Origin: Eledone cirrhosa
Lineage: Eukaryota
Length of the DNA: 64,000 nt
NCBI GenBank assembly: GCA_964016885.1
Contig: OZ024742.1
Span: forward strand, 251,720,001 to 251,784,000
Reading direction: 5' to 3'
Numbering within the stretch: the stretch's first letter is position 1; every line of letters begins with the position of its first letter. Of the stretch, positions 15,340 to 63,010 are shown in pieces. The position numbers and the translations under genes were made by a program. The notes under the pieces were generated by a model. That model saw only the letters and a program-made list of their open reading frames with translations, ran no database searches and had not been told where the DNA came from.

Positions 15340-16535
15340 CTCCCACCACCCCCACTCTCCACCACTATTATAAGTCAGCGGCCTATGCTATCACTTCTCC
15401 TGGTTGTTTTTCGATATGATGGATGGACAAAGGAATTTCTGGAGAGTCTGAAGAATCTGGACACTCGGAGACAATGCCAAAGATAATGACAAATTCACCT
15501 CATGCTGCCGGACGAAAGGGCAAGGACTCCTCCTCTTTGTTTCGGCCGCGGAAGGCCAACATAACCTCAACCCCCTCCCCCTCCCCGCGCCCCACCCACC
15601 AAATACAATCCAAAACTTCAGAGTTGGTACCATGAATGTAGGCACTTTAAAAGGCCGCTCTAACGAGGTTGTAGAAATGCTTGAACGTAAGGAGGTTGAT
15701 GTTTGCTGTATCCAAGAGACCAGGTGGAGGGGCAGGTCTGCTAGATTCATTGTGGGTAAAAAACGATGCTATAAGCTTTTCTGGGTGGGAAATGACAATG
15801 GGCTGGGTGGGGTAGGAATCATGTTAGCAGAAAAATGGGTGGATAAGATAATACATGTAAATAGAGTAAATGACAGAATAATTAAAATAAGACTTGTTCT
15901 AAATAGAACTACTGTGATAGTAATATCTGCATATGCACCCCAATCCGAACTGCCTGGCGCTATGAAAGACAGATTCTATGAGACACTGATGCTCACTACC
16001 TCCCAAATAACTGACAGTGACTATATAATTATTGCTGGCGACCTAAATGGTCACGTTGGACAACATTGTGACGGCTATGACGGAATCCATGGAGGCTATG
16101 GGTTTGGTACTAGAAATGAGGAAGGCTCCAGAATCCTGGAATTCTGTGATGCAAATAACCTAACTATCTGTAACACTAACTTCAAAAAACGAGACAATCA
16201 CTTGATCACCTACAGATCAGGGGAACATACCAGCCAGGTAGATTATATCCTTACCAGAAGACGTGACAGAGTGTCTGTTGTAAACACTAAATCCCTCCCC
16301 ATGAAGAATGCACCTCCCAACATAGACTGATAATTAGCGACCTCATAGTCAGGACGAGACGTACTCGACAACAGAAGAGGACTATCCTCAGGAGAAAAAT
16401 ATGGAAGCTAAAGGACCCCACACCCAGTAATAAATTTAAAAGCATATTACTTGATGCTTTCGACAGTAAGAATGAGCAATTAGAGTCGTACAATATAGAG
16501 GAACAGTGGGAATTCCTGAAAGCAAACCTGCTTTC
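15340..16535 (+). mobile_element. RTE-clade LINE, 5' fragment with APE endonuclease
   Basis: ORF 15632-16330: NVGTL...CIQETRW...SAYAPQ...GDLNGHVG...SQVDYIL. Confidence 0.9.
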
Positions 16536-18961: not shown

Positions 18962-21445
18962 TACTTGATGGCCGCAAAATCGTGTTCAAGTATTGCCATC
19001 GCCCGATAAAATGTTCAAAAATGTGGAGCACAAATGTGACTCTTTAAACCAGCCAAATACTTGCACCCTCTGGCACACACATGGCAACTTTAGGCTCCCC
19101 TGAAACCTTCCATTGCTTTGTTCTGGCTGTATGTTCACATGTATCTTTTAAGACCTCCCATGCTTGTACATTTCTTACACCTTTTCAGATCATAATCTAC
19201 AGGAGGTCTACTGATATGACTTTGTTCATGTCTAATCAAACCAACTTTGCTCAGGCTGACTCGACCACAGTGCTGGCAAACCAGATGATGTTCAACAGCA
19301 GGCAATTCAGAACAGTCTCAATCCTCACCTTCCTTTTCAGTGTTAGGTGTTCTCTCCGACGAGTTTCAAAGTGTTCACCACCTGACTTGATCAAACGTCT
19401 CCACTTCACACGCTCGTCAGCCATTTTCTCCCATTCGTCAGATGAAATTCCAGCACAAGCCAAGGTGCCCCTGATACAGTCCTGGTACCGCCTTTTGGGT
19501 TTATGTGGTGGTCGCCTTCCTTCACACAGTTCTCCATAGAGAAGTTGCTTTGGAATACGATCATCAGACATCCGGACCACGTGACTGCATCACCTCAACC
19601 GATACCGAAAGATTATGCTCTCTATAGTCACGCACCTGATCCGTTCTAGAACTTCCAAATCACTGGCGAACATTTTCCACCACACCCCAAGTAACTTATG
19701 AAGAGATTGTTGGTGAAATCTCTCCAGATCCTTGAGGTGCTTTCTGTATGTGACCCACGTTTCACAAACATAAAGTAAAGAGGAGACGACACAAGTCAGA
19801 TACACTTTCACCTTGGTTTCGATAGTGATACCTCGTCTGGACCATAAACATTGATGCAGCCGACCAAAAGCATCACTGGCTTTCTTGATTCTTAAGGATA
19901 TTTCATTATCATGTGTGCATGAAGTGTGCAACGTACTACCAAGGTAAACAAGCTTGTCAGCAACTTTTAGCCTCTTTCCGTACACGTACACACTTGGTGC
20001 AGTGTACTCGTTTCCAGGTACTGGCTGATACATCTCAACAGTCTTTTCCAAGCTTATTGTGACGCCCAAAGTGCTGCACTCTGCAGAAAAAGAGTTCATA
20101 ATATGCTGCATGTCACTTTGTGAGTGTGAAAAAAGATCGCAGTCGTCTGCATACAAAAACTCTCGGATTATAGATGTTAATACCTTTGTGCTTATACCAA
20201 AGCGCCTGGTGTTGAACAACCTTCCTGAAGTGCGATACCTGATGTAAACCCCATGAGAACAATATTTGAATGCCATGAGAAACACTATCGTAAAATATAA
20301 GGAAAACAGAGTTGGAGCCGGAATGTCCCCCTGCTTCACTCCATTTTCAACTAATATTGGTTCAGAGATGCTACCACCAATACTGACCAAAGCCTTCATG
20401 TCATCATGGAAAATATGCAGAATCTTCTACCCTACCTTGGATTTTTTTCCCACAGCGCAGTTTGCTTGACAGTGTCAAAGGCCTTTGTCAAGTCAACAAA
20501 GACCTGGTAAAGGTCCATACATTGTTCGATACACTTTTCTTGCAGCTTCCGAGCAGAAACGATCATATCCACTGTTCCTCTTTTGTGTCTGAACCCACAC
20601 TGCGACTCAGGCAACACATTCAGAGCAACTCTTGGGATCAATCTATCCATCAATACGACACGACTTTACCAACTACTGAAAGAAGGGATATGACATGATA
20701 ATTGCCACATTTGTCCTTGCCGTCCTTTCCTTTATGGAGAATCACCATGAGCGCATCCTTCTTGTGGGACATTCTTATCTTCCCGCACCATTTTCATGAG
20801 GTCAGTCAGGCGCTGCGTGAAGTTTTCACCACCACACTTCAAAACCGCTCCACTCAGACCATCCATACCAGGAGACTTACCACAGTTCAGCTTATGCACA
20901 ACAGAAGTCCCCTCTGCAAGAGAAGATACATTAGCCATCTCATATGCTTCACTGGTTCAATAGGAATGGAACAAATGAAATCATCATCAACCTGGGATGG
21001 CTGGTTTAAGAGCTCATCAAAGTGATCTCTCTATCTGTCGAGTGTCTTTTGGGTCGCACAGTAATTGCTTGCCATCTTTCGATCTCAAAGGGGCCACTGG
21101 AGAGCTGAAAGGGCCATACACCTCTGTGAGTAGAAAGTGCGGCAGTTTCACATTGTTGCCGTCAGATGCCACTTGAACTTCATCTGCTTTGTTGCTCCAC
21201 CAGGCATTTTGCATAGCCCTGAGTTTCACCTGCACTTCCTTCTTTACCTGTCTGTAACGCTTATAATTGTTACCAACAGAGCTACCACCTTTAAGAACTG
21301 CATCAAGTGCCTTTTGTTTTCTGTCTAGCAGAGCCTTGACCTCCTGGTCATTCTCATCAAACCAGTCCTTGTTTTCTTGTGACAAAGCCAAGGACCTCTG
21401 CTGAAGCCTCATAGACCGAGCTCCTGAAGTCCTTCCAGTTGTTCT
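18962..21445 (-). mobile_element. RTE (BovB-like) LINE, degenerate ORF2 with (TATG)n tail
   Basis: LPESQCGFR, FVDLTKAFDTV, GVKQG, LYADDC, RIPKQLLYGEL motifs; frameshifted. Confidence 0.9.
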
Positions 21446-26142: not shown

Positions 26143-28095
26143 TATTCTTCTTCCCCCACATATTCCTGAGAATGTCGTGAGGGAAGAGTCCTCAAACACT
26201 CCTTCCAGTAGGTCCTCTCGGAAGCAACCGTCTCCAACTGATCTGGCTGGATTCCCAAGCGATACCAGCCAAGTTCATGGATGTTATCCAACCATCTTGC
26301 TCGGGGTCTACCCCCAGGTCTCTTGCCAGTTGGTTTTGCTTGTAAAATCTGTCCAGCGATGATTTCCTGAGACATTCTAACCACATGTCCATAGCATCGA
26401 AGCTGTGATCTCTCAATTCGGAGAGGTAGCGGCCTTACCTGGAGTGACTTTCTGATCTCTCTGAGCTACGCACTCTATCGAGTAACGTTACTCCCAACAC
26501 ATCTTCAGAGGAATCCGGTTGTTTGTATTCACGATCGTACTCTTTCGGTCCTTACCCAAGATTCATGACCATAGGTAAGGGCTGACACGAATACCAAATT
26601 GAAAACAGCGAATTTGGCTTTTATGCTTACTTCCCTTCTGATTACTGTATGCTGAAGCTGCCGCATTACTGCACCAGCTCCTGCAATTCTTGCACTTAAT
26701 TCAGCCTCTTGCCTTCCATCACTCGTGAACACGGTCCTAAGATACTTCAACCTCTCTACCTGCTTCAGTGGAACTCCATTTACATGTAGGGTGTTCTTCC
26801 TTGAGAGAACGAGCGTCTCAGTTTTCGCAGCACTGATTTTTATTCCAGCCACGCAGCACTCGGCATCAAACCTATCGAATGCAAGTCGGAGATCACCTTC
26901 TGCAAATTCCAGTCGACTGATTTTTGCACAAGCCAGTCATGATACCACTTCCAAACCAGGTGCGCATGTCAATCCTGTTCATGTAAATGAACAGGAGATG
27001 ACAGTACGCACCTTTGGCAGATTCCGACTCCCACATTGAATGGTTTTGATTTAGCACCATTTATCCGAACACAAATACATGGGCATTAGTATAGAGACAT
27101 CAGGGCAGTAAGGAGCTGACGATCGATCCCATACTCTTGCACAACTTTCCACAGCAGGTCCCGAGGAACGCCGTCATATGCCTTTTCAAGGTCGACAAAA
27201 CAAGAATATACATCTTGGCAATACTCCCACGATTTCTCAAAAACCTGCCGCAGTGTAAATATTTCCTCGGCTGTGCTGCGTCCGGGGTAAAAACCATACT
27301 GTTCTTCAGTCAACTTGGCCTTGCCACATTTGAGCTCTTTAACTGTTCTTATGACCTCAGATTCAAAGAGATTAGTCACCACTCCCAGATGCACTTCGTA
27401 TACATCAGAAGATGCGGTTGTGGTCGGGTTTAGGAGATCAGCAAAGTATTCTCTCCACCTCGTGAGGAGGCACCTCTCTGTAAAGAGGAGAACCGCAGAC
27501 ACGACGCATTCTTATTAACAGGTGTACAAAGTCGGCGGATGGTCTGCCAGAACTCTTTATTTGCTGATCTAAAGTCGGATTCCAGCTTAACCCCAAAGTC
27601 TTCCCATGTCTTAACTTTGGATGCCTTTACTGATCTCTTCTGCGATTCTTCGTGCCTGCTTGTACCGCAAGTACAAAAAGGAGGACCTATTTCCAAGCCA
27701 ATCTTTGTAAGTCTCCTTCTTTGCACGGATGGCATCTTTGACCTCTTGATTGAATCAAGGGGCCATTCTGCCATCCGGCACCACACCAAGCCTCTTTCGC
27801 CCACAACATTTAACAGCTGAAGCTGAAACTGCTGAGCTGAACAGTCTCCACTCTGTCTCAATGTCCTCAGTTTGCTAAGGGAGTCGTCTAAATTTGGATG
27901 CAATAGTATCTGCATACATGGTCCTGACTTCCTTATCTACCTATGCTTCCCACTTTATCCTTTTAGTTGCCCTGGACTTGATATTTTGTGGGCTTCTTTT
28001 GCTTTAGTTAGTCTCAAGTTGCAGATAACTAGATGGTGATCGGTTGACAGCTCAGCCCCTCTCTTAACACGAACATCCAGCACAGAATCAAAGAT
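26143..28095 (-). mobile_element. RTE-group LINE fragment (degenerate RT, (GAA)n tail)
   Basis: CFVDLEKAYD, LTYGHESW and RPRARWLD motifs, with deletions. Confidence 0.85.
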
Positions 28096-33610: not shown

Positions 33611-34141
33611 CGAATGTGAATAAACTAAGGTAACTTTACCCTGTTGACTTACACTTCTTATTTTTACATTACTCCGGAGTAAACAAACCAACCTGCGCAC
33701 TTAGTTGACTTACACTTCTTATATATATATATAACCATCCTCAAATATAACTATCAGTGGGTATGGTGTGGTGTGCGGTGACCGGAGGCTGGGGAGTGCT
33801 CAACCGGAAGAGTGCTTGACCGGAAGGGTGCTTGACCGGAAGAGCCAGCAGGTCTGCCTCTCTCTAGGGTGGTCAGCGAACGTGGTGGACGTCAGCTTTG
33901 GAGCTCCCGGTTAACGAATTGGATTGTACGCACATGGGAGAGGAGAAACCAGCCATTGGATTAGCGGTGCCAGCGATAAGCGGTAAGTGAGGTAGCTTTT
34001 TCTAACCATAAGCTATTTCGGCACTGGAAACTGATATCTGATTGATAAAAAAAAAAAAGAACTTTCTCGAAAACAAAGCTACTGGAAAAACAGAGAGGAG
34101 TCTGTTGTTCTTTATTACTTACCGCAGGACAAAATTAGGAT

Positions 34142-34905
34142 ATGGCGACGAGATTACGAATGAGCGGAGAAGCGATTATAGCATTTACCGGAGAAGGCGA
34201 TGCTGTCGCCTGGTTGCGAAAAGTCCGGCTTGTCGCAAGCTTACAGAAGATAGAAGATGTGGCTGGCCTCATGGCACTGTACCTCGAAGGGGATGCGTTG
34301 GCACTCTTCCTAGAGATGGATGAACACAGCCAAAGGGATGCGCAAAAGATTGAGAGGCGTATGATGGAAGCGTTCGCGGAAGGACCGTTAGCCGCTTTTG
34401 TTAAGCTGGCAAGGATTAGATGGAACGGTGAACGCGTTGACATTTTCGCAGCGGAAATACGGCGATTGACCATGTTGGCTGGATATCAGGTGGAATGCGA
34501 ACGCACGGTGCGGTTGGCGTTCATAAACGGATTTCCAGACGACATAACGGTGAAACTGCAGCAACTCCCGGGTTACAAGGAAATGGAGATGCGTGCACTG
34601 GTGGAGCAAGCCCGCATCATAGCAGAAGATTCCAAGAAGAGTGTCGCGGCGATAGCAATGACAGAGGCCAAGGCAGCCGGCAGCGAAATGGTGAAAGGGA
34701 GGCAACCACGGCACGCGGTCGCCTGCGAACGTTTAGAGGTCGCTGTTTTAGGTGCCAGGGCCCGCACATGGCGAGAGACTGTAAAAAGTCAAGGCCGGAC
34801 AAAATATGCTACCGGTGTAAGCGACCAGGCCACATCGCTACTAGCTGCGACCAGGGAAACGATTCAAGGGGAACTACTGCGCCGGTAGCTGCCCCTTACG
34901 AGTAG
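34142..34905 (+). pseudogene. gag: Gag with two zinc knuckles (frameshifted)
   Basis: ORF 34142 capsid-like region; CFRCQGPHMARDC and CYRCKRPGHIATSC lie in a shifted frame. Confidence 0.85.
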
Positions 34906-34916
34906 AGGCGCTTCCC

Positions 34917-37600
34917 GTGGTGAAAGTCTTCGTGAGGGGAAAGCCACAGCGAGCTCTCGTGGGCACGGGCTGTACGACGACACTGGTGACCGTGGGGGTG
35001 GCGCAGAGGTGGAGAGGGAAGAGCAGCGTAAGGGCAGTCGACGGTAGGAAAATTGAATGCCGAGGTCGCAGCAAAGTGGAGATGGCGGTACGGGGAAAGA
35101 AAATAAGGCTTTCTGCCATCGTAGTCGACAACGTGGTGGATGGGATCGGTGTAGTAATGGGAATGGACGCAATTGGCCGTCTAGGAGGCGTCACAGTGAA
35201 CAACGTCGGTGTGTCGTTTGACGGCGCCGCATCGGTATGCGCTGTGAGTACGCGACAGGAGAACCAGAAGGCCCGCGAGGAGAAATATCCCGCTTACACT
35301 GTACAGGATAAAGACTTCAAGGCCGTGTTCGATGGGTTGTTGAGTGGTACTGGAAGGGAGAACCACCAACACTGAAGACCAAAGTGGGCTGCTATCAACA
35401 CACATTGAAGGGAGACATTAGGAGCGAGTTTGAGCGAGAGGTAGAGAGATGGATTGAGGAGGGCATGCTGCTTCCCTGGAAAGAGGAGGTGAAGTGCAGA
35501 GTATTGCCGTTAATGGCGGTGACGCAACCCACGAAGAACAAGGTGAGGCCGGTACTGGACTTTCAGGAGCTGAACGAGCACGTGTCATGCCACACGGGTG
35601 GCGAGGTCATGGATGTCTGTGGAGAAACCCTGCGTGAGTGGAGACGCATGACGGGGGCTTCCGCAATCGTTGATCTAAAGTCGGCATACTTACAATTACA
35701 CATAGATGAGAAGCTCTGGCAGTATCAGCTGGTCAGGTTTAAGGGCCGGACATATTGCCTGACCAGGCTCGGTTTCGGGCTGAGCTCTGCACCGAAGATC
35801 ATGGCGGCGGTCCTCAAGACTATTCTGGGAAAGGCCGACAAGATGAAGAGGGCCACTAATTCCTACATTGACGACATCCTAGTGGACGAGTCTGTAGTGT
35901 CGGCGGCGGAGGTCACGAGTCATTTACATGAGTATGGATTGGCTGCGAAGCCGTCAGAAGCGTTGGAGGGAGGAGCCGCGCTGGGACGTAGATAGGACGG
36001 GCGTCTTAGTATTCCAGAGGGGAAATGAAGTTCCAGAACTGGGCCCAAGTATGAGTAGGCGGGAGATTTTCTTGGCATCTGGAAAGTTGGTGGGTCACTA
36101 CCCGATTGCTGGGTGGCTCAGGACGGCATGCAGCTATGTCAAGAGACGAGCGGGCGGGGTGACTTGGAGTGACAGGGTGGGAGAGAGAACGGTGGCCATG
36201 ATGCAGGAGATCGTGGAGAGGGTGAAGGTCAACGACCCAGTGCGGGGACGCTGGTATGTTCCCAAATCGCAGAGCGGGACCGTATGGTGCGATGCCAGCA
36301 GCATAGCGCTAGGTGTCATGTTGGAGATAGGAGGTGTTGAGGTCGAGGATGCAGCCTGGCTTAGGAAGAAGGACGATTGCAACCACACCAATGTGGCCGA
36401 ACTGGACGCGGTGTTGAGAGGGGTGAACCTCGCCCTGAGGTGGGGACTGCGCACCATCGAGATTCACACCGACTCAGCTACTGTACTCGAATGGGTGAGA
36501 TCAGTGCTCAAGAGTGAGAAGAGAGTGCGAACGAGAGGGGCGGCGGAGATGCTGATAAAGCGCCGCCTGGGAACTTTAGGAGAGATGGCCACCGAGTTCG
36601 ACCTGAGGCTGAGAGTAGTTTTCGTGCCCTCAGAGAAAAATAGGGCGGGCGTTTTAAACAGGGTGAAGAAAGCCTGGATGGAAGCGCCGGGGGATGTAGA
36701 AGGGGAGATAGCTGCCGTGTGTCGGCTGACCGAGTTGGATCAGAAAGGGTTGCATGACATGCACAACATGGGAGTTGATAGGACTCTGTTCCTAGCCAGG
36801 AGAATCGACTCGGACGTTAACAGACATAGTGTTGAAAGAGTGGTTAGAGGCTGCGTCCGATGTCAATCCATTGATCCCGCCCCGGGTGTGCACGAAACGG
36901 GAAGCCTACCGGTGGATCGCGACTGGAAGCGATTGGCGGTGGATGTAACACACTACCGACAAGGAACATACCTCTCAATGGTCGACTGTGGGCCGGGACG
37001 GATGGTGATATGGAGGGAGATGAAGACTGGAACGGCCGAGGAAATCACGCGGTCGTTGAGAGAGGTGTTCTAGGAGCGGGGCCCTGTGGACGAACTGCTG
37101 ATGGACAACAGCGCAGCGTTCCGCTCGGGGGCGCTGAGAGAGATGCTTGATGGATGGAAGGTGGACCGTTTCTTCAGAGCAGCGTACACGCCGAGCGGAA
37201 ATGGAATCGTGGAGCGACACCACCGGACGATCAAAGCAATGGCGATGCGGGGCCACATCTCACCAATGGAGGCAGTGTTCTGGTACAACATGTCTCCCCG
37301 GGTGGGACAGGTTGAAGAATCGGTGCCACACAGAGCAGTATTCAGATACGAGTGGCGGCACCCGTGCACGACACCACAACGGTCAGTGGAGAGAGAGAAT
37401 GCATTTGTGCAGGTGGGCGAAGAAGTCTGGGTTAAGCCCCAACATGCACGTTGCACATCTCAATGAGGAAGGGGAACGGTGACGACCGTAAATTCCCAGA
37501 ACAATGTGTCCGTGGACGAAGTACCACGTCATGTCCTGGATGTCTGTAGAATTACTGTGTCAACGGACTCCGAGGAAGTGGAAACCCAAAGTGCCGCCCC
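34917..37600 (+). pseudogene. pol: Pol: protease, RT, RNase H, integrase (frameshifts and stops)
   Basis: ALVGTG (mutated DTG), DLKSAYLQ...YIDD, WCDASS...AELDA...TDS, HHCC and D..DN..NGIVERHHRTIK. Confidence 0.9.
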
Positions 37601-42164: not shown

Positions 42165-45100
42165 TATACATACATCTACATACATACATACATATACACA
42201 TACAGAAACATACACATGTGTACACACATATATACATATATGCACATACATACACACACACACATACAAACATACACACATCCATACATATATATACACA
42301 CACACCCAAATACACCCACCCACATACATATATACCCACACGTACATACATCCATACATACCTACACACATATATGTGTGTGTCTCACCGTTCACTCAGA
42401 TATTCATGTGTATACATAAGAAGGGGGGGGGGGTAGTGAAATGGAATTTTACCTCCGAGTGTTAATTCATTTTTTCGTGTTCAGTAGTGGTTTAAATTTT
42501 TCAATGAAGAATTCTTCTTTATATCTGCGGAAATGTTCGTTATCCGACCATATCTTGAAGAAAGGGAAGATTGTGAATTTTCCCTTCCCGCATGATGCAA
42601 AGTGTGCGCTACATGTGGTATTTCTGACTGTGCGGTCTTTAATTTGTTGTTTATGTACCCGGACTCTATCATGTAATCCCGTTCCGGTTTCCCCAATGTG
42701 GACATGTTGCGCAATATATTAGGTTTTTCGTTTTGCAGTTCATGTTAGCATTGACCTTGAAATTATCATGGTTTTTGAAGGACAACTGTTTGCCCTCTTC
42801 GATGAGTTCACAGGTTCCACATCTAGGGTCCCCGCATTTCGTCACTTGCATTGATTCCATGTTGGTCGTAAGTTTTGCCTTGGTAATTAGTTTTTTACGG
42901 TTGGGTGCTTGGCGTCTGCTATAAATTATCTGTGTGTTTTTTAAGAGTGCATTCATTTTGGTAGATTGCTGTAGAATCGGGAGATACTGCTTAGCAGTTT
43001 TCACAATGTTGATGTTCCCTGGGTTGTGAGTGATGACAAAAGAGATAGCAGGGTTTTCTTTTTTATGTTGTGGGTTTGGTTTTCTCAGTGTTGTTATTGG
43101 GATGTTCTTAGCCTTGGAGATGGCTGCGTTGATGAGTTTCATCGGGTATTCTTGTTTTTTAAGGAATTTTTTCAGGTCACATAATCTGTTTTCTTGTAGT
43201 ACGGGGTGTGTTGCTATAGTGCAGATGCGCCTTGCCATGTTGAAGGGAATGTTCCTTTTCGTATGTGAGGGGTGTGCTGACCGGAAATTTAAGTATTGGT
43301 GTGTGTCAGTGGGTTTGCAAAATAGGTCCGTTATGATATTTTCCCCTTCTTTAATGATGAGGATATCTAGAAAGGGCAGTTCCTTTTCGTTACATTCCAT
43401 AGTGAATTGTATAGCTTCATGAAGCCTGTTTAGGATCGAATAAAATTTTTGTAGGTCTGTTTGGCTTCTGTTCCAGAAGATGAAGCAGTCATCTAGGTAA
43501 CGTTTCCAGTTTTTATTAATGTAGAAGGCGAAGTCGTGACTGAATGTTATCTGTAGTTGGGAATATAATTTTGCCTCTAAGTGACCCATAACGAGCGTTG
43601 CATATGTAGGGGCCACTTTGGTACCCATGGCTGTTCCTTTTATTTGTAGATAAAGTTCGTTGTCAAAAGGGAAAGTGGTTGTTTTCCAATACTAATTTAA
43701 GTCCTTCCAAGATGAATTCTTTGGGGAATCTTTCTGAAATGTGACTTGAGTGTTTTGTAATCCAGAAGTCCACAGCTTCAATCCCTAGGTCGTGTGTACA
43801 GGCTTATTACATCAAAACTGACTAGGATTGTATCCTGATGTACTTTTTGGGGGATATAGTTAAGGAATTCCATATCACCTATGATGTAGCTTGGAACTTT
43901 TTTACATAGGGGTTTGAGTATGATGTCTAATAGGTTGCTTAGACGTTGTGTGCTTGAGGCTGGGCCAGCAATAATGGGGCGTAATTTTAAGTCTGTCGGT
44001 TTTGGGGCTTCGATATATGATGTATTTTTCCCTTTTATATTGTTTTGGATTTCTATGTATTTGTGAATTTTTGGTAATCCATAGAAATTGCTGGTTTTCA
44101 TTTCGAAGTTGGTTAGGTAATCTACTTCTTTTGGTGTTAGGTTGCTTTGGTACTTTGTTGTTAGTTTGCCTATTTGGTTCCTCGATTTCCTTTCTTCGTT
44201 TTTAGTGATTTTCCTGTAGAAGTTTTCGTCATTCAAGTGTGCTAGAACCATATCTTTGTAGTGGTTTGTGTCCATGATGACGATTGCGCCACCTTTGTCC
44301 GCTTCTTCTATTATTATTGAGGAATCCCTTTGTAGCTTGTTCAATGCTAGTAGTTGGTCTGTAGGGATGTTGCGTTTGTGTTTCGTCTCGGCCGTATTTG
44401 CACGTGCTGATCGGCGAAGGCAGGTTATGTATTCCTCCAGGTATTTATCTCTATTTAGCGGGGGTGTGAAGTTCTTTTTGTTTTTCACCAGTGATTCTTC
44501 CTCGTATTGTACACCCTGGAAGAATTCTCCTAAGCGTAATTTTCGACAGTATTCTTCTGTGTCTTTTATAACATCGGCTGTATCTGCTTTCGGAGTGGGA
44601 GTGAACTTCAGTCCATTTTCTAACAGTTGTATTTCTGGTTGTGTTAATTTCTTGGCTGATATATTGATTATTTTTGGTTCGATTAGTTCTTTCTCTTCAG
44701 GTGCCACTTGAAAGGTGGTGCTTTTTTCTTTTTTTCTTTCATTTGGTGCGAGGCCCCTAGTCCTAAAAAATGGGTGCCATTTGGGATAGGGGTGTTTCTG
44801 TTGTGGTGAAACCTTTGGCCCGCCGGAACTTCATGCCGGTAACTGGTTGGGCGATAGACTCTTGCGTGGTCGTTGCTGTATGGGGGTCTGGTTCTTCTGT
44901 TGTTTCGTTCAGTATTCATGTGTCTTTGATTTTGTCTCCGGTAATTGTTCTTGGTGTTATGGCAGTGGTTGTATCTGGTTCTGGTGTTGAGTATTGGGTC
45001 TGTATGTAGTTGTGTGTTTGGGGTTACCCAATACCTGGTTGTTGTTGGTTTATTGTGTGTGGGTGCTTCATTTCTTGTGTTGTTGTATTTTCCTGAGTTC

Positions 45101-57213: not shown

Positions 57214-57429
57214 TTATTAATATTAATTCAAAATATTAACAACTCCGGAAAACTTTTTTTGTTGAGTGCTTCCAATCTATTGTAAAACTCATTCTTTGAT
57301 TTATTCATTGAACCTTGTTTAACCTTTAAATATACAATATATATATATATATATATTGAATATTATTATTATTCGAAAAACTCAGATTACATTTATTATA
57401 TATATTTATATATAATATATAATGTGTTA

Positions 57430-58925
57430 GAAATGACACTGCTGCACTTAGCACTACTGGTGCTCAAAAGAAAAGTCTGGAAATGTTACTACAAAAAGCT
57501 GATGAATGTAGAGAATGGATGGGAGGCAGAGGGACTATACCAGACTTACCCAGCAGAGGGACCAGCTATTGAAATTGTTCAATTAAAGAAGCAATCAATG
57601 AGATGAAGAATGGTAAAGCTGTTAGACTGTCAAAGATAGTTGCCGGGATACTGAAAGCATTGGGAGAAGTAGGAGCCGAACTAGTAACCTGTATAGTCAA
57701 TCAGGTAATACAGGATGGAATCATACCCAATGACTGGTGCAGCAGTACATTCATAAATTGCTACAAAGGTAAATATGATGCTGTAGAAAAGAACAATTAC
57801 AGAGGAATAAAACTAATGGACTAAGTTGTGAAAGTGATGGAAAGAGTTCTAGCACAGCTAATTAGGGAAAGAGTCAATTTAGATGGGATGGAGTTCAGTT
57901 TTGTGCCTGGAAAAACAACTATAGATGCCCTCTTTTTAGTGATGCAACTAGAAGAGAGGTTCCTAAGCAAGAATAAACTGCTGTATTTAGCTTTTGTTGA
58001 TCTAGAAAAGGACTTTGACAGAGTACCTCGTTTTGTTATCTAGTGATCTTTAACAAAATTAGGTGTAGAAGAATGGCTTGTGAGAGTTGTGTAAGCTATG
58101 TACTGAGGAGCTGTCAGTAAAGTGAGTAGGAACTGAATTTAGTGAGGAATTCAAATTGCACATAGGAGTTCATTAGTATTCAGTTCTCAGCTCATTGCTG
58201 TTTATTATAGTTCTCCAGGCCATAACAAAGAAGTTTAAGACTGACTGTCCATGGGAACCTATCTATGCAGATGATCTGGCCCTTATAGCTGACCCCATAA
58301 AAGAACTAGAGAATAAGTTTTAACTATATAAACAGAATTTGATATCAAAAGGGCTAAAAGTAAACTTAGCCAAAACTAAAGGGCTAGTGCATAGGAAAGA
58401 AGATAGAACTCTGATTCCTTCAGAGAAGTGGCCCTGCTCAATATGTCAAAAAGGAGTAGGCATACACGATGTACACAATGTATACAATGTAAATCTTGGG
58501 TACATAACATGTAGTGGGATAACAAGCAGACTAACTGGAAGGAAAGACTGTATGTAGATACACTGGGTTGATCAATAGAAAGAGCATTGAACTGAGGAGA
58601 AACTGGGTTTAAGAGGAATCCAAAGTGGTGCACAAGAGAGAAGACTGTTTGTATGGGCATGGGATGCACATGGATGATCACTAGGTGAAGCAGTACAGGC
58701 AATTCCAATAGAAGGAAGCCACAGTAGGAAAACCAAGGAAGACCTGAGTGGAGGTGGGGAGAGTTGATCTCAAATTGCTGAGATTCACAGAGATGATGAC
58801 ATAGGAACATGGCAAGTGGAGAGATGATGACATAGGAACATGGCAAGTGGAGAGATGATGTACTGAAAAGGACCCGTCCAACTTGTGTGAGCATGGAAAA
58901 ATGGACATAAAAATGATGGTGATGA
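57430..58925 (+). mobile_element. Old degenerate RTE LINE fragment
   Basis: NNYRGIKL, AFVDLEKDFDRVP, YADD, PSEKWPCSIC; gatgat tail. Confidence 0.85.
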
Positions 58926-60682
58926 TATATATATATATATATTGAGTTAACCAAAAGGAATAAAAATTGCAAATTAATGAGCTTAAATATATCTGCACCG
59001 GCAGCCTAAAGAAACACTTGAACCTTACCAAGAGAAGATTTCTGTTCTTCTCCACACACTCCAGTCTGGGAGTTGTGACCAACTGACCATCAACATGTGG
59101 TAACAATTATTTATATCAATTTATTTGACTTCTGTGAAGTAAAACCATGTCACAACACTCACCTGCAATTATTGTCATTCTTGATAATTTATATACACCT
59201 GATACTAATATCCTAAAATTTCATTCTCACCAAAAAGCATGATAGAAGAATGATCATAAACACACAGTCCCTTCCAGGTAAGGAATGCACCTCTCAGCAT
59301 TACCTGATAGTTAGTGACTTACTAATTAAAGCTAGATGAACTCAGAGATGGAGGGCAACCTGGAGCAGAAAGATATGGAAATTAAAGGAACTCTCAGCCT
59401 GTAACAAATTTAAGGATATCTTACTTGACACTTTTGACAATAAGGAAGAAACAATAGCGACATATGCTATAGAGGAGCAGTGGGAGTTCCTGAAAGATAA
59501 TCTACTGAAGGCTACAAATGAGGTCCAAGGAGTAGGAGAGTGAATTGGTGGTGGATGAAATAATTAAGGCATAGAGTTAGGCATGGAAGGAATAGCAAAA
59601 TGGAGGTAGAAGAGAGATTTACCAAGTGGCAACGAGAGAGGCGAGAAGCAGAAAGTAAAAAATTTGTGCATGTTATGCGGGTTGATGACCAAAGGCATGA
59701 GGTGTTCAGGATCGCAAGGCAGTGTGTTAGGAAAATTAGTGATGTCGTGGGACAGAAGGAAGTGAGTCTATGATGACAATGGTGCACTTGCTCTCAATGA
59801 AAATGAAAAGGCAGCATGAAAGTGTCATTATGAGAGACTGATGAATGAGGAAAATGTGTGGGAAGAAAATAGCTTGCCCCCCGTGACCCTACAGAGGGAC
59901 CAGTGGTATAAATTAGTAACAGTATAGTAAGGCAATTAAAGACATGAAAACAGGCAAAGAAACAATGCCATCGTGAATAGTTGCTGGCATGCTGAAAACA
60001 TCTGGGATGGTAGGGCACACCAACCACCTATATTGTTAACCAAGTAATACAAAATGGTGCTACACCCATTGACTGGTGTAGCAGCATCATCAACTGCTAC
60101 AAGGGCAAAGATGATTCACTAGACAGAGGGAACTATCGTGGCATCAAACTGATAGACCTTGTCATGAAGGTTACAGAGTCATTGAGATGCAATTCAGATT
60201 TGTGCCAGGAAAAAGTACCATAGATGCCCTCTTCCTTGTGAGGCAACTGCAGAAGTATCTAGCTAACAGCAAAGCCCTTTACTTAGCCTTTGTTGACCTC
60301 AAGAAAGCTTTTGACAGGGATCCCCATTCTGAAATCTGGTGGGCACTTAGGAAACTAGGTGTAAAAGAGTGGCTAGTGAGTACAAGTCATGTACAGAGGT
60401 GCTGTCAGTAAGGTTAAAGTTAATAATGACTATAGCAAGGAGTTTAGTGTGAAAGTTAGGGTCCACCAAAGTTCTGTTCTTAGCTCTTTCCCATTTATTA
60501 TCGTCCCCCAGACTATAACAGAAGAGTTTAAAACAGGATGCCCTTGGGAACTCCTGTATGCTGATGATCTAACACTCATAGCTGAATCTATGACAGAACT
60601 AAAGAAAGAATTCCTGACTTGGAAGCATAACCTAGAATCAAAAGGTTTTAAAGCCAACGTGGCAAAGAACAAAGTTCTAGTA

Positions 60683-61417
60683 GACATTTGTTGTTTCCAA
60701 AGAAGGGACTTCTTGATTTCTAAACCAATATGTCGGGACATCGGAGGTGGGACAGCATTACCAACCTGACGATGTTTATCAAGAATTCCTCCAAAGAAAC
60801 GGTATGTGTCAGGAAAACCCTGTTCAGGGTGGAGCACACGACCCTGTTTTCCTATGGGTTCAGGATTAGTGAGGGTTGTACTGAAGAAACCATCCCATTC
60901 TACTTGACCATAGAGTCCGGACCAGTGGTTGTGTCTGTTACCAGTATGAGGCAGACACCAGGGAATCAAAGTGTTAAACTGTCGGTCCATTGGGTCACAC
61001 TTGCCGTCGAGGGCACAGGCACACACACACTCCTCAATTGATTGTTAGGCCCTTTGCCATTTCGTTTATCGTGGTGACTGTAATGAATTTTTTTGGTTTT
61101 GTTCCCATCAGATAATTTAAGAATAACATTTGGTAAGTCCCTCCAATCAGCGCCAGGACATAATGGAATATGTGCATCCTTGCGTGTACCAATGGACTCA
61201 TCTCTTTACAGATATGATCACGAAGAATTGGTTGATGTTGCTTGCCACGAATCAGTCTTTGAAAATATGAATATGGTTCCCCATTATACTGGATTTCTTC
61301 GTCTTTATCACCATTTCGAATCTCTGGTAAGTCAGACATGGTGTCTCGTACAGTAATAGTCCGAAATGGGGCAGAACCAGTACGGGTTATTGTAGAGTTA
61401 TACTTCTCATCAACGAC
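60683..61417 (-). pseudogene. DNMT1: Processed, truncated DNA (cytosine-5)-methyltransferase 1 retrocopy (TRD and motif X)
   Basis: [22 protein letters not shown]...[13 protein letters not shown]...[15 protein letters not shown]...[20 protein letters not shown]...[29 protein letters not shown]...[12 protein letters not shown]; no introns, one frameshift, 13-codon deletion. Confidence 0.93.
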
Positions 61418-61439
61418 GCTCCTTTGCCAAACTTCTCAT

Positions 61440-62030
61440 CAACGACACTCCTTTGCCAAACTCACTCCAGAAATTTTCAGGCCTCTCTATGTCGCCCTCG
61501 TAAAACCGCACCTAGAATATGGCATCCAAGCATCAAACCCATATCTCATCCGGGATATCCATCACTTGGAGAGAGTTCAATGACTAGTGACTCGAACGGT
61601 ACAGGGTCTTCATGAGCTGCCCTACGAAAGCCGGCTGCAGAAACTGAACCTCTTCTCCTTGAAGCATCGACGGCTACGAGGCAATCTCATTTTGGCTTAC
61701 AATCTCTTCAATGGCCATTACAATCTCCCTCAAGATCTCCTATTCTCTCCGGCACTTGAAAGGGGTCTACATGGACATGACAAAAAGCTGTTTCACTGCT
61801 TTCACCTAAATAGACGGAAAGCTGCTTTCTCGATCCGCATCTCTGGACCCTGGAATCGGCTTCCAGAAGAAGTAGTCAACGCGCCAACCACGCAACAATT
61901 CAAGGCAAAATTGGACCAGTGTTGGACCACTGTGTTTCCGACTGTGTAAATTTTGCCCCTCTCCCCTCGTTACATGGCATCTGAAGCATCTATGTTTTAT
62001 TTTCTGCCAAATATATTGAATTGAATTGAA
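61440..62030 (+). mobile_element. CR1/L2-group LINE 3' fragment with (TTGAA)n tail
   Basis: LYVALVKPHLEYG...LERVQ...LPYESRLQKLNLFSL..RRLRG.LI...WNRLPEEVV. Confidence 0.88.
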
Positions 62031-62639
62031 AATAGTATGTAGTAAAGAAAATAAGGCTCTGATTCCTTCTGGGAAATGGCCCTGCTCAGTGTGTAAGGAA
62101 AGGGGTGGGTAGAAATTCCATCCTCTGTCCCAAATGCAAGCTATGGGTACACAAGAGATGTAGTGGAATCTCAGATAGGTTAACTAAGAACGTAGGTTTT
62201 ACATGTGGCCATTGCACAGGAACAGTAAGTGACAAACACTCAAGAAACAAGTGCTATCAAATTCTTGGAAGGTTCCATAGAAGCAGTTGACAGCTTCTGC
62301 TACCTAGATGACCAAATAAGCCGTGGAGGTGGGTGTGCCAAAAGTACAGTAGCGAGAGTGAGAACGTGGTCGTAGCCTTGAAACTGTGATTCCTCTGTGA
62401 GAAGAGTTTGGCATGGTCAACTGGCCTGTCCCTCCTCATAGCAGTGCCATCCAGTTCCACTCTGCAAATGTGGTTGCTGCACCAAACTGTGGTTCCACTT
62501 TGAGAAGGGTTTGGTGCAGCCAACTGCCCTGAACCACCCCCCCCCCCTCATAGTGGTGCCATCCAGTTCCAGGTTCCCAAACTGTGGTTCTGTTGTGTGA
62601 AGGGTTCAGTGTGGCCCACTGGCCTGTCCCTCCTCGTAG

Positions 62640-63010
62640 CAGTGCTATCCAGTTCCACACTGTAATTGTAAGGTGAAGGAGATGCACTGGAAGAGCCATT
62701 CCATCTCATGAGGCTCACACCTGCGGTTAGCCAGCTCAGCGCCTATGGTGGTGAGTAGGGAGGTAGCCCTAGGGCCAAGGACACCAGAAGTCTCGACTGC
62801 AAATCTGTCAGAGAGCGACCGATATTGGAGAGTTTACTCTCCTCAGCCCGAAATGCAGCAGAGTCTGGGTTAGTTGCAGACTGCACCAGGTTGCCGCTAG
62901 AGAATGTGTTGCTGCATGTGGAATCCCAGACGAGGGGATTACCGCCACAGAAAGGAAGATGGTCATACTATCTGGCCTTTTGCAGTCCCCTTGGTCCAGC
63001 CCCACCAACT
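62640..63010 (-). mobile_element. CRE-like non-LTR fragment
   Basis: VGLDQGDCKRPDSMT; homologous to 49780-50140. Confidence 0.7.

What the first reader, a model, noticed from the sequence alone, without database searches (positions are those of the whole stretch)
60683..62037. Chimeric retrocopy: antisense DNMT1 cDNA fused to a CR1 3' end, inserted into an RTE
Seen: ~735 bp of intronless DNMT1 C-terminal coding sequence on the minus strand joined head-to-head to a CR1-like 3' end with a (TTGAA)3 tail. The RTE reading resumes on both sides, with a candidate TAGTA duplication (60678-60682, 62033-62037). No DNMT1 stop codon, UTR or polyA. Inference: one LINE-mediated event with template switching or twin priming captured the host's methylation enzyme transcript. 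Plus-strand read-through would give antisense DNMT1 RNA, a possible regulator of the silencing machinery. It also implies germline DNMT1 expression.
Basis: partly seen in the sequence, partly recalled or inferred. Interest (0 to 1): 0.75.

Follow-up and report, generated by a model that had tools for sequence, protein, structure and literature searches.

The report
DNMT1 retrocopy fused to CR1 tail
A broken, intron-less copy of the last part of the DNA-methyltransferase gene DNMT1 lies back-to-front against the tail of a CR1-type jumping element inside an older jumping element, likely made in one insertion event; it is a clean single example of gene capture by such elements, not a shown regulator.

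Summary
Window 60683-61417 (minus strand) is a 735-bp spliced DNMT1 cDNA. It crosses 5 GT-AG introns of the parent gene on another contig (C21), differs by 20 substitutions and 4 indels, and stops 13 codons before the parent's stop codon, with no UTR or poly(A). It abuts, head to head through a 4-nt overlap (CGAC), a 5'-truncated CR1-type LINE 3' end (61418-62032) with a (TTGAA)3 tail. A 29-bp tandem duplication spans the junction. The composite sits in an older RT+PHD LINE and is flanked by a 5-bp TAGTA duplication; 15 of 19 paralogous LINE copies are uninterrupted at that site. The DNMT1 piece and the junction are unique in the assembly.

Best reading: one CR1 insertion event, likely twin priming on two RNA templates. 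Plain template switching does not fit, because it gives same-orientation chimeras. The retrocopy is a dead pseudogene.

Contigs from an RNA-type run cover the flanking LINE and reach 29 nt into the antisense piece. Strand is unknown, so an antisense-regulator role remains untested.

Antisense mRNA/L1 chimeras are already in print. The CR1-type context is the unusual part: 5-bp duplication, and 0 inversions in 29 family loci (about 23 of them 5'-truncated). Interest is moderate to low.

The parts
59218..60682 (+).
   Evidence: Pfam RVT_1 on 60115-60411 and 60380-60769. Paralog BLAST hits run from 59218 and stop at 60682. The family has 4137 first-look candidates, and the scored copies are 83-89% identical.
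60678..60682 (.). Left copy of the 5-bp target-site duplication TAGTA
   Evidence: Read directly. Paralogs read ...GTTCTAGTA|AGTAGTAAGG... with one TAGTA.
60683..61417 (-). Processed DNMT1 partial retrocopy. In window coordinates the exon pieces are: A 60682-60765, B 60766-60843, C 60844-61086, D 61087-61252, E 61253-61402, F 61403-61417
   Evidence: Five exact exon joins; 20 substitutions in about 733 aligned nt. Indels: a 39-bp deletion at 60819/60820, +CA at 61020-61021, -T at 61172, -CTT at 61402. PDB DNMT1 hit at E = 7e-33.
61414..61417 (.). 4-nt overlap (CGAC) shared by the DNMT1 cDNA end and the CR1 family sequence at the head-to-head junction
   Evidence: Comparison of the window, parent exon F and 29 CR1 copies.
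61402..61459 (.). 29-bp tandem duplication (61402-61430 and 61431-61459) spanning the DNMT1/CR1 junction. One mismatch at a CpG (61447). Bounded by ACT on both sides
   Evidence: by eye. TRF reports period 29, 2.1 copies, 96% matches.
61418..62032 (+). 5'-truncated 3' end of a CR1-type LINE: the C-terminal part of ORF2 (stop codon at 61947-61949), the 3' UTR, and a (TTGAA)3 AA tail at 62016-62032
   Evidence: RVT_1 lies upstream in the longer copy L038.
62033..62037 (.). Right copy of the TAGTA target-site duplication
62038..62372 (+). Right part of the host LINE (PHD finger region and 3' end)
   Evidence: Pfam PHD on 62063-62290. Paralog hits cover 62033-62372.

Best explanation
Window 60683-62032 is one composite insertion, flanked by a 5-bp TAGTA duplication inside an older LINE, in which a 735-bp intron-less antisense DNMT1 cDNA meets a 5'-truncated CR1-type LINE 3' end head to head through a 4-nt overlap; it was likely made in a single CR1 retrotransposition in which a second reverse transcription, primed from the other nicked target strand, would have copied a DNMT1 mRNA (twin priming on two templates).

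Shown:
- the anatomy of the composite;
- the spliced origin of the DNMT1 piece;
- the single target duplication;
- the overlap at the junction;
- uniqueness in the assembly;
- loss of the reading frame.

Inferred steps:
1. The CR1 endonuclease nicks the bottom strand left of TAGTA, and that 3' end primes on the (UUGAA)n tail of a CR1 RNA.
2. The top strand is nicked 5 nt downstream. Its 3' end (...CTAGTA) starts cDNA synthesis inside the coding region of a DNMT1 mRNA, about 40 nt before the stop codon.
3. The two cDNAs pair through CGAC and are filled in and ligated. The 29-bp duplication across the junction would be a slip at the ACT repeats, either during this fill-in or later.

The product is a non-coding relic. 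No function is shown.
For: - Spliced origin: 5 of 5 parental introns in the span are absent, with exact joins. A 2409-nt spliced contig in run X4 shows the same joins with the parent's alleles.
- One event: a single TAGTA duplication brackets the composite, and 15 of 19 paralogous host-LINE copies are uninterrupted at that site. Neither part has flanking repeats of its own.
- Similar divergence of the two parts: the DNMT1 part has 20 differences in 733 nt (2.7%) against the parent. The CR1 part has 15 private differences in 551 nt (2.7%) against the majority of 29 copies.
- Geometry: in the DNMT1 part the plus strand is the first-strand cDNA. In the CR1 part the minus strand is. That is what two primings from the two ends of a staggered break give.
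- Junction: there is a 4-nt overlap at the cDNA-cDNA join.
- Duplication length: a 5-bp duplication equals the 3-5 bp peak reported for CR1 and L2 clades, against 10-12 bp for RTE and 13-15 bp for L1 (PMC4245944, passages).
- Precedent: mRNA/L1 chimeras with antisense mRNA are described as 'more consistent with twin priming' (PMC13174262, passages).
- No source locus: the DNMT1 query found only itself plus 5 parental exons (6 of 6 candidates). The junction query found only itself (1 of 1).
- Physical reality of the left half: DNA contigs of sample S1 bridge the left junction and carry the retrocopy-specific alleles over 60624-61253 with no difference.
Against: - Only 1 nt (A) is shared between the top-strand 3' end and the DNMT1 sequence at the proposed second priming site. 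Only 2 of 5 overhang positions would pair.
- In experiments, the zebrafish CR1/L2-type element ZfL2-1 gave no 5' inversion, and a 5-nt overhang was thought too short for a second priming (PMC4245944).
- Here, none of the 29 fetched loci of this CR1 family (about 23 of them 5'-truncated within the flank) carries an inverted CR1 segment. Inversion is therefore not a habit of this family.
- 13 of 20 differences from the parent are synonymous. Part of the 2.7% is therefore allelic or parent-lineage change, and the match with the CR1 part's 2.7% is soft.
- No listed read-derived contig bridges the internal or the right junction.
- Sequence alone cannot tell target-primed synthesis from capture of a ready-made cDNA.
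Confidence: 0.58

Rival explanations
1. Same single CR1 insertion, but the DNMT1 piece was a ready-made cDNA fragment, reverse-transcribed off the target and then caught as filler DNA when host end-joining sealed the CR1 5' end to the target. Its orientation would be a matter of chance.
For: - Extra nucleotides at the 5' junction are common for CR1/L2-type elements in their own host: about half of ZfL2-2 copies have them (PMC4245944, passages).
- Only 1 nt of overlap stands at the left end, and 4 nt at the internal junction, as in microhomology-mediated joining.
- None of the 29 family loci examined (about 23 of them 5'-truncated) shows an inversion.
- The 29-bp duplication at the junction resembles the templated insertions made by end-joining polymerases. 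That resemblance is recalled, not tested.
Against: - The reported extra nucleotides are 'several', not 735.
- A free cDNA of an internal mRNA stretch needs a primer of its own, and none is evident.
- The 3'-most mRNA position sits exactly at the target's top-strand 3' end, as target priming predicts.
Confidence: 0.2
2. The head-to-head unit existed earlier at a source locus. It was transcribed as one RNA ending in the CR1 tail, and that RNA was retrotransposed here as a simple 5'-truncated copy (5' transduction).
For: The CR1 machinery needs only the CR1 3' end of an RNA (established for stringent-type LINEs; recalled). The composite has a single tail and a single target duplication.
Against: - No other copy of the DNMT1 piece or of the junction exists in the 3.0-Gb assembly (6 of 6 candidates are self or parent; 1 of 1 is self).
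- It only moves the origin of the junction to an earlier, unseen event.
Confidence: 0.05
3. Two separate insertions landed side by side by chance: a DNMT1 cDNA and a CR1 copy.
For: TE-dense region. Among 89 window ORFs of at least 110 aa scanned outside the finding, the only Pfam families found were TE-type domains.
Against: - Only one target duplication brackets both parts.
- The second insertion would have had to land exactly between the first insert and its flanking repeat, leaving no repeat of its own.
- The junction has a 4-nt overlap.
- The divergence of the two parts is equal within error.
Confidence: 0.05
4. The internal junction, or its 29-bp duplication, is an assembly error.
For: No listed contig of runs X1-X3 covers 61304-61397 or bridges 61417/61418. 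All three stop at 61253.
Against: - 61253 is where the retrocopy and the parent gene stop sharing words, so a contig break is expected there.
- The parent's own exon E contigs are also missing in that interval at 96% likeness. This points to the tool's stated filter rather than to absence.
- The junction shows biological marks: an overlap, and a CpG transition between the two 29-bp copies.
- The left junction and 570 nt of retrocopy-specific sequence are confirmed in reads.
Confidence: 0.05
5. Beyond its origin, the locus acts today: plus-strand transcripts through the host LINE would carry 735 nt of antisense DNMT1 and would feed small-RNA or duplex-based control of DNMT1.
For: - In run X4 (RNA by content: it holds the spliced DNMT1 contig), four contigs with no difference tile 59849-60711, ending 29 nt inside the antisense piece. 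Others lie on 62108-62160 and 62323-62517.
- X4's contigs total 87.8 million letters against a 2,996-million-base genome, so a random locus is rarely represented.
- The piece is 97% identical to the mRNA.
Against: - Strand is unknown.
- The 29 letters fall short of the tool's 31-letter bridging rule.
- Genomic DNA carry-over or intron RNA would give the same picture.
- It is a single copy with no sign of conservation.
- No small-RNA data were available.
Confidence: 0.05

Closest known systems
Antisense-oriented mRNA/LINE-1 chimeric insertions attributed to twin priming (Cell Genomics 2026, PMC13174262; passages read)
   Same: - A host mRNA fragment and a LINE 3' part lie in opposite orientation within one insertion.
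- The mRNA part lacks the first exon and shows no sign of splicing to the LINE.
- Twin priming is the proposed route.
   Different: - The LINE here is CR1-type, with a (TTGAA)n tail and no poly(A).
- The duplication is 5 bp, not 7-17 bp.
- The mRNA was entered inside its coding region.
Classical 5' inversion of L1 by twin priming (Ostertag and Kazazian 2001; seen only as a citation, content recalled; model restated in PMC2912911)
   Same: - Two cDNAs start from the two ends of a staggered target break.
- They are joined through microhomology.
- One duplication flanks the whole insertion.
   Different: - In the classical case both arms come from the same LINE RNA. Here the inverted arm is a cellular mRNA.
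- The classical cases have 10-20 bp duplications (PMC4245944).
Template-switch or RNA-ligation chimeric retrogenes (U6/L1 and others; Buzdin 2003 seen as a citation; PMC6789731 seen in a listing)
   Same: Two different RNAs end up in one LINE-made insertion with one duplication.
   Different: Those chimeras have both parts in the same orientation (PMC13174262). This one is head to head, so that route does not fit.
5' extra nucleotides at junctions of CR1/L2-type LINEs (ZfL2-2 and ZfL2-1; PMC4245944)
   Same: CR1/L2-type element, about 5-bp duplication, and non-element DNA between the 5' truncation point and the target.
   Different: The reported extras are a few nucleotides of unknown origin. 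Here it is 735 nt of an identifiable spliced mRNA.
Pseudogene-derived antisense RNAs and endogenous small RNAs that act on the parent gene (mouse oocyte endo-siRNAs; recalled, no paper opened)
   Same: A retrocopy lies antisense to its surrounding transcription unit with high identity to the parent mRNA.
   Different: No strand-resolved transcript, small RNA or effect on the parent has been shown here.

Membership tests
Processed retrocopy (retropseudogene) of DNMT1 | Sequence derives from DNMT1 | tested here: met
   PDB phmmer: mouse and human DNMT1 at E = 7e-33, and all 23 hits are DNMT1. Pfam DNA_methylase. 95-100% nucleotide identity to the exons of the gene on C21.
Processed retrocopy (retropseudogene) of DNMT1 | Introns of the parent gene are precisely absent | tested here: met
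   5 of 5 GT-AG introns in the span are missing, with exact joins. The spliced RNA contig shows the same joins.
Processed retrocopy (retropseudogene) of DNMT1 | 3' UTR and poly(A) tail | tested here: not met
   The copy ends 13 codons before the parent's stop codon, directly at the target duplication. It is therefore not a classical poly(A)-primed retrocopy.
Processed retrocopy (retropseudogene) of DNMT1 | Lies at a locus other than the parent's and is flanked by a target duplication | tested here: met
   C3 against C21. TAGTA brackets the composite, not the DNMT1 part alone.
Twin-priming (inverted) LINE insertion | Two arms in opposite orientation joined at their 5' ends inside one target duplication | tested here: met
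Twin-priming (inverted) LINE insertion | Microhomology at the internal junction | tested here: met
   CGAC is shared by parent exon F and the CR1 copies.
Twin-priming (inverted) LINE insertion | Complementarity between the top-strand 3' overhang and the RNA at the second priming site | tested here: inconclusive
   1 nt is shared. 2 of 5 overhang positions would pair.
Twin-priming (inverted) LINE insertion | Both arms derive from the same LINE RNA (classical definition) | tested here: not met
   The inverted arm is DNMT1 mRNA. At most this is the two-template variant.
Twin-priming (inverted) LINE insertion | The LINE family produces inversions | tested here: not met
   No minus-strand CR1 hit in any of 29 family loci, about 23 of which are 5'-truncated within the 1.5-kb flank. 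The references cover only the last 2.1 kb of the element.
CR1/L2-type (stringent) LINE | Encodes a reverse transcriptase upstream of this 3' part | tested here: met
   L038 has a 669-aa open frame with RVT_1 at E = 1.3e-25.
CR1/L2-type (stringent) LINE | Tail of short tandem repeats instead of poly(A) | tested here: met
   29 of 29 copies end in 2-6 TTGAA-type units.
CR1/L2-type (stringent) LINE | Short target duplication (3-5 bp peak) | tested here: met
   5 bp at this copy. The expectation comes from PMC4245944. Other copies were not measured.
CR1/L2-type (stringent) LINE | Stem-loop in the 3' UTR before the repeats | tested here: inconclusive
   Fold of 61940-62032: -9.2 kcal/mol, z-score 0.30 against shuffles.
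CR1/L2-type (stringent) LINE | Placement of the RT in the CR1 clade by phylogeny | not tested
No reference set of LINE clades was at hand.
RTE-clade host LINE | RT of the RTE clade | not tested
   Only RVT_1 and a downstream PHD finger were found. Clade placement was not attempted.
Pseudogene-derived antisense regulator | Transcript carrying the antisense piece, and small RNAs from it | tested here: inconclusive
   Contigs of an RNA-type run reach 29 nt into the piece, with strand unknown. Small RNAs could not be tested with these tools.

The most novel reading that the evidence does not exclude
A CR1-type LINE, of a kind thought unable to start a second reverse transcription from its 5-nt overhang, primed on a host mRNA and planted an antisense copy of the maintenance methyltransferase inside a transcribed LINE. 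Plus-strand transcripts of that locus give antisense DNMT1 RNA that feeds small-RNA control of the very enzyme that silences transposons.
Probability: 0.04. Interest if true: 0.8.

Novelty: new variant of a known kind. Interest (0 to 1): 0.35.

Why it matters
LINEs that recognise their own 3' end, such as CR1 and L2 types, are thought to make few gene retrocopies because they do not use poly(A).

This locus shows a route that needs no poly(A): the host mRNA is entered internally and joined, inverted, to the LINE cDNA. It is also a natural case that sits uneasily with the experimental view that a 5-nt overhang cannot support a second priming (PMC4245944).

As a single, dead, single-copy relic, its weight is that of a well-resolved anecdote. 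It would gain weight only if a census found more such chimeras, or if antisense DNMT1 RNA and small RNAs were shown.

Tried and rejected
- **cDNA deamination signature.** The CR1 part has 9 G>A against 3 C>T private changes. However, 8 of these 12 lie in CpG, the other 29 copies together show C>T 127 against G>A 91, and the DNMT1 part is skewed on the same strand rather than the opposite one. This is ordinary CpG decay, so I dropped the idea.
- **The 39-bp gap as an alternative splice.** None of the four possible placements starts with GT or GC and ends with AG. The RNA contig of X4 contains the 36 letters. I read it as a deletion at a CTG repeat.
- **An empty allele.** The joint 60645>62132 in X1 and X2 does not lie at 60682/62038 and has only 26 letters on its shorter side. 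At 99% likeness no joint remained. I read it as a paralogous LINE copy.
- **Parts without cover.** DNA runs X1-X3 give nothing on 61304-61397. X4 gives nothing on 60740-62055 at 99%, or on 61424-62071 at 96%.
- **RNA holders.** No RNA holder was listed by the look-up of sequencing runs. X4 was recognised as RNA only by its content.
- **Organism B.** Run X5 gave only repeat-family contigs and nothing on the DNMT1 part, so it allows no statement on presence or absence.
- **Earlier scan notes.** None exist for this genome.
- **3' UTR stem-loop.** The fold is no better than shuffles.
- **Host genes in the window.** A Pfam scan of 89 ORFs of at least 110 aa outside the finding found only TE domains.
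- **Literature.** Four searches returned no listed title or abstract describing a CR1-type inverted mRNA chimera. 10 papers hold both 'twin priming' and 'CR1'. I opened passages of three of them (PMC4245944, PMC2912911, PMC5389967). In PMC5389967 the term stands only in the reference list.
Full report
**Observation**

The window lies at G000:C3:251720001-251784000 in a 3.0-Gb assembly. Read on the minus strand, 60683-61417 encodes the C-terminal catalytic part of DNMT1:
- Pfam DNA_methylase on the 204-aa frame.
- phmmer against the PDB gives 23 hits, all DNMT1, the best at E = 7e-33 to mouse and human chains.

A DNA search of the whole assembly with 60683-61420 gave 6 candidates, all scored. 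They were the locus itself and five pieces on contig C21 (20501071-20506634, minus strand) at 95-99% identity.

With 20 kb of C21 fetched, a fine BLAST and anchor search placed six exons. A sixth, 15-nt piece (61403-61417) belongs to the next exon upstream. All five introns in the span have GT-AG ends, and all five joins in the window are exact.

A 2409-nt contig in public run X4 carries the same joins with the parent's alleles and continues into the parent's upstream exon. This shows two things: X4 is an RNA run by content, and the parental mRNA is spliced in exactly this way.

The parent's frame runs on for 13 more codons after the point where the copy stops.

**State of the copy**

Against the spliced parent there are 20 substitutions in about 733 aligned positions (2.7%) and four indels:
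- a 39-bp in-frame deletion bounded by CTG;
- +CA in a (CA)n run;
- -1 T;
- -3 (one AAG codon).

The two frameshifts kill the frame. The 39-bp gap is not a splice variant. No placement has canonical ends, and the RNA contig contains the missing letters.

Thirteen of the 20 substitutions are synonymous and 15 lie in third codon positions. That is far more than neutral decay of a pseudogene would give. A good part of the 2.7% must therefore be allelic difference or change in the functional parent lineage.

**The CR1-type part**

From 61418 rightwards the plus strand matches a LINE family: 240 first-look candidates, of which 40 were scored, 39 of them non-self at 93-95% identity.
- Comparison with 29 fetched copies shows that family homology begins at ...CGAC|GCTCCTTTGCCAAACTCAC.
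- All 29 copies end in 2-6 TTGAA-type units.
- One longer copy (L038) has a 669-aa open frame with RVT_1 at E = 1.3e-25 upstream of the segment present here. The window therefore holds the end of ORF2, the 3' UTR and a (TTGAA)3 AA tail.
- The 3' UTR fold is no better than shuffles (z 0.30).

It is supported only by the tail type and the short target duplication.

**The junctions**

*Internal junction.* The DNMT1 cDNA ends ...CATCAACGAC, and the CR1 sequence continues from CGACGCTCC. Four nucleotides (61414-61417) belong to either side.

A 29-bp unit that contains this junction is present twice (61402-61430 and 61431-61459; TRF reports 2.1 copies at 96% matches). It is bounded by ACT on both sides and has one difference, a CpG transition at 61447.

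*Outer junctions.* TAGTA stands at 60678-60682 and at 62033-62037. Of 19 paralogous copies of the host LINE:
- 15 are contiguous at this site, and 10 of those have one exact TAGTA;
- 1 has a deletion across the site;
- 1 is rearranged;
- 2 gave no right-flank hit.

Paralog BLAST hits stop at 60682 and resume at 62033. The host LINE has RVT_1 and a PHD finger. Its scored copies are 83-89% identical, so it is older than the CR1 family. It runs from at least 59218 to about 62372.

**Read support**

Runs X1-X3 come from one sample. They are DNA by content, because they hold the parent's exon with its intron.
- They give contigs with no difference over 60624-61253.
- One 106-nt contig bridges the left junction with 59 and 47 letters.
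- Their depths are similar to the parent gene's.
- They all stop at 61253, where the retrocopy and the parent gene cease to share words.
- Nothing is laid on 61304-61397. The parent's own exon is also missing there at 96% likeness, so I take this as the tool's stated filter, not as a finding.

The internal and right junctions therefore rest on the assembly alone.

**Mechanism**

In the DNMT1 part the plus strand is the first-strand cDNA. In the CR1 part the minus strand is. One duplication brackets both parts, and neither part has its own.

This is the geometry of twin priming: two reverse transcriptions start from the two ends of a staggered break and are joined through microhomology (model restated in PMC2912911, and PMC13174262). 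Here they would run on two different RNAs.

The 5-bp duplication equals the peak reported for CR1 and L2 clades (PMC4245944), which points to the CR1 machinery as the agent.

Several results weigh against a simple reading:
- Only 1 nt is shared at the proposed second priming site.
- In cell assays a zebrafish CR1/L2-type element gave no inversions, and its 5-nt overhang was judged too short.
- None of the 29 loci of this family (about 23 of them 5'-truncated) has an inverted arm.

The main rival is therefore capture of a ready-made DNMT1 cDNA by end joining at the CR1 5' end within the same event. Sequence alone cannot separate the two.

I consider these unlikely:
- Two separate insertions.
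- A transduced pre-existing chimera. No second copy exists.
- An assembly error.

**Function**

The copy cannot encode a protein.

In run X4, four contigs with no difference tile the host LINE from 59849 to 60711. They end 29 nt inside the antisense piece, exactly where words become shared with the DNMT1 mRNA. Further contigs lie on 62108-62160 and 62323-62517.

X4's contigs total 87.8 million letters against a 2,996-million-base genome, so the locus seems to lie in transcribed sequence. However:
- contigs have no strand;
- 29 letters fall short of the tool's bridging rule;
- carry-over DNA or intron RNA would look the same.

The antisense-regulator idea stays an untested possibility.

**Comparison and verdict**

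Antisense mRNA/L1 chimeras ascribed to twin priming are in print (PMC13174262). My four literature searches returned no listed title or abstract describing the same for a CR1-type element. I opened passages of four papers in all. In one of them, PMC5389967, the term stands only in the reference list.

I file the locus as a new variant of a known kind. The origin as one event is well supported. The exact priming route is inferred. No function is shown.

Noticed in passing
window 60683-61417 against G000:C21 exons (L007/L008): 13 of 20 substitutions between the retrocopy and the parent are synonymous, and 15 of 20 lie in third codon positions. That is too many for pseudogene decay alone. The source mRNA may have come from a different allele, or the parent gene has changed at silent sites since.
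   Followed up: partly
window 61172: The contig of run X3 carries the extra T here, as in the parent. The contigs of X1 and X2, from the same sample, lack it, as in the window. Either this is an indel polymorphism between two retrocopy-bearing haplotypes or a read error.
   Followed up: no
L038:1-2010 (G000:C1:57209985-57211994): This copy of the CR1-type family has an uninterrupted 669-aa frame with RVT_1 that runs off the 5' end of the locus. Family copies are 93-95% alike, so the family may have been active recently.
   Followed up: partly
window 59849-60711 and 62108-62517: The RNA-type run X4 holds locus-specific contigs (no difference) on both flanks of the insertion inside the host LINE. 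The locus appears to lie in transcribed sequence. Strand and transcript structure are unknown.
   Followed up: partly
window 61460-62010: 8 of 12 G>A or C>T private changes in the CR1 part lie in CpG, and 3 of 10 in the DNMT1 part do. This is the usual mark of germline cytosine methylation at this locus.
   Followed up: partly
window 34139-37070 (+): LTR-retrotransposon-like run of ORFs: zf-CCHC, gag aspartyl protease, RVT_1, DUF7047 and an RNase H-like RVT_3.
   Followed up: no
window 15452-16327 (+), 19593-20426 (-), 27089-27511 (-), 42672-43691 (-): Further LINE pieces: one endonuclease (Exo_endo_phos) frame and three RVT_1 frames. In this scan the window's only long frames with Pfam hits were TE domains.
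   Followed up: no
window 57423-58536: A second, more diverged stretch (64-73% identity) related to the host LINE family lies about 700 bp upstream of the host copy.
   Followed up: no
window about 62380-62650: By eye, three imperfect repeats of about 90-100 bp follow the host LINE's 3' end. TRF did not report them at score 40. Runs X1-X3 show a variant with 10 other letters at 62426-62459.
   Followed up: no
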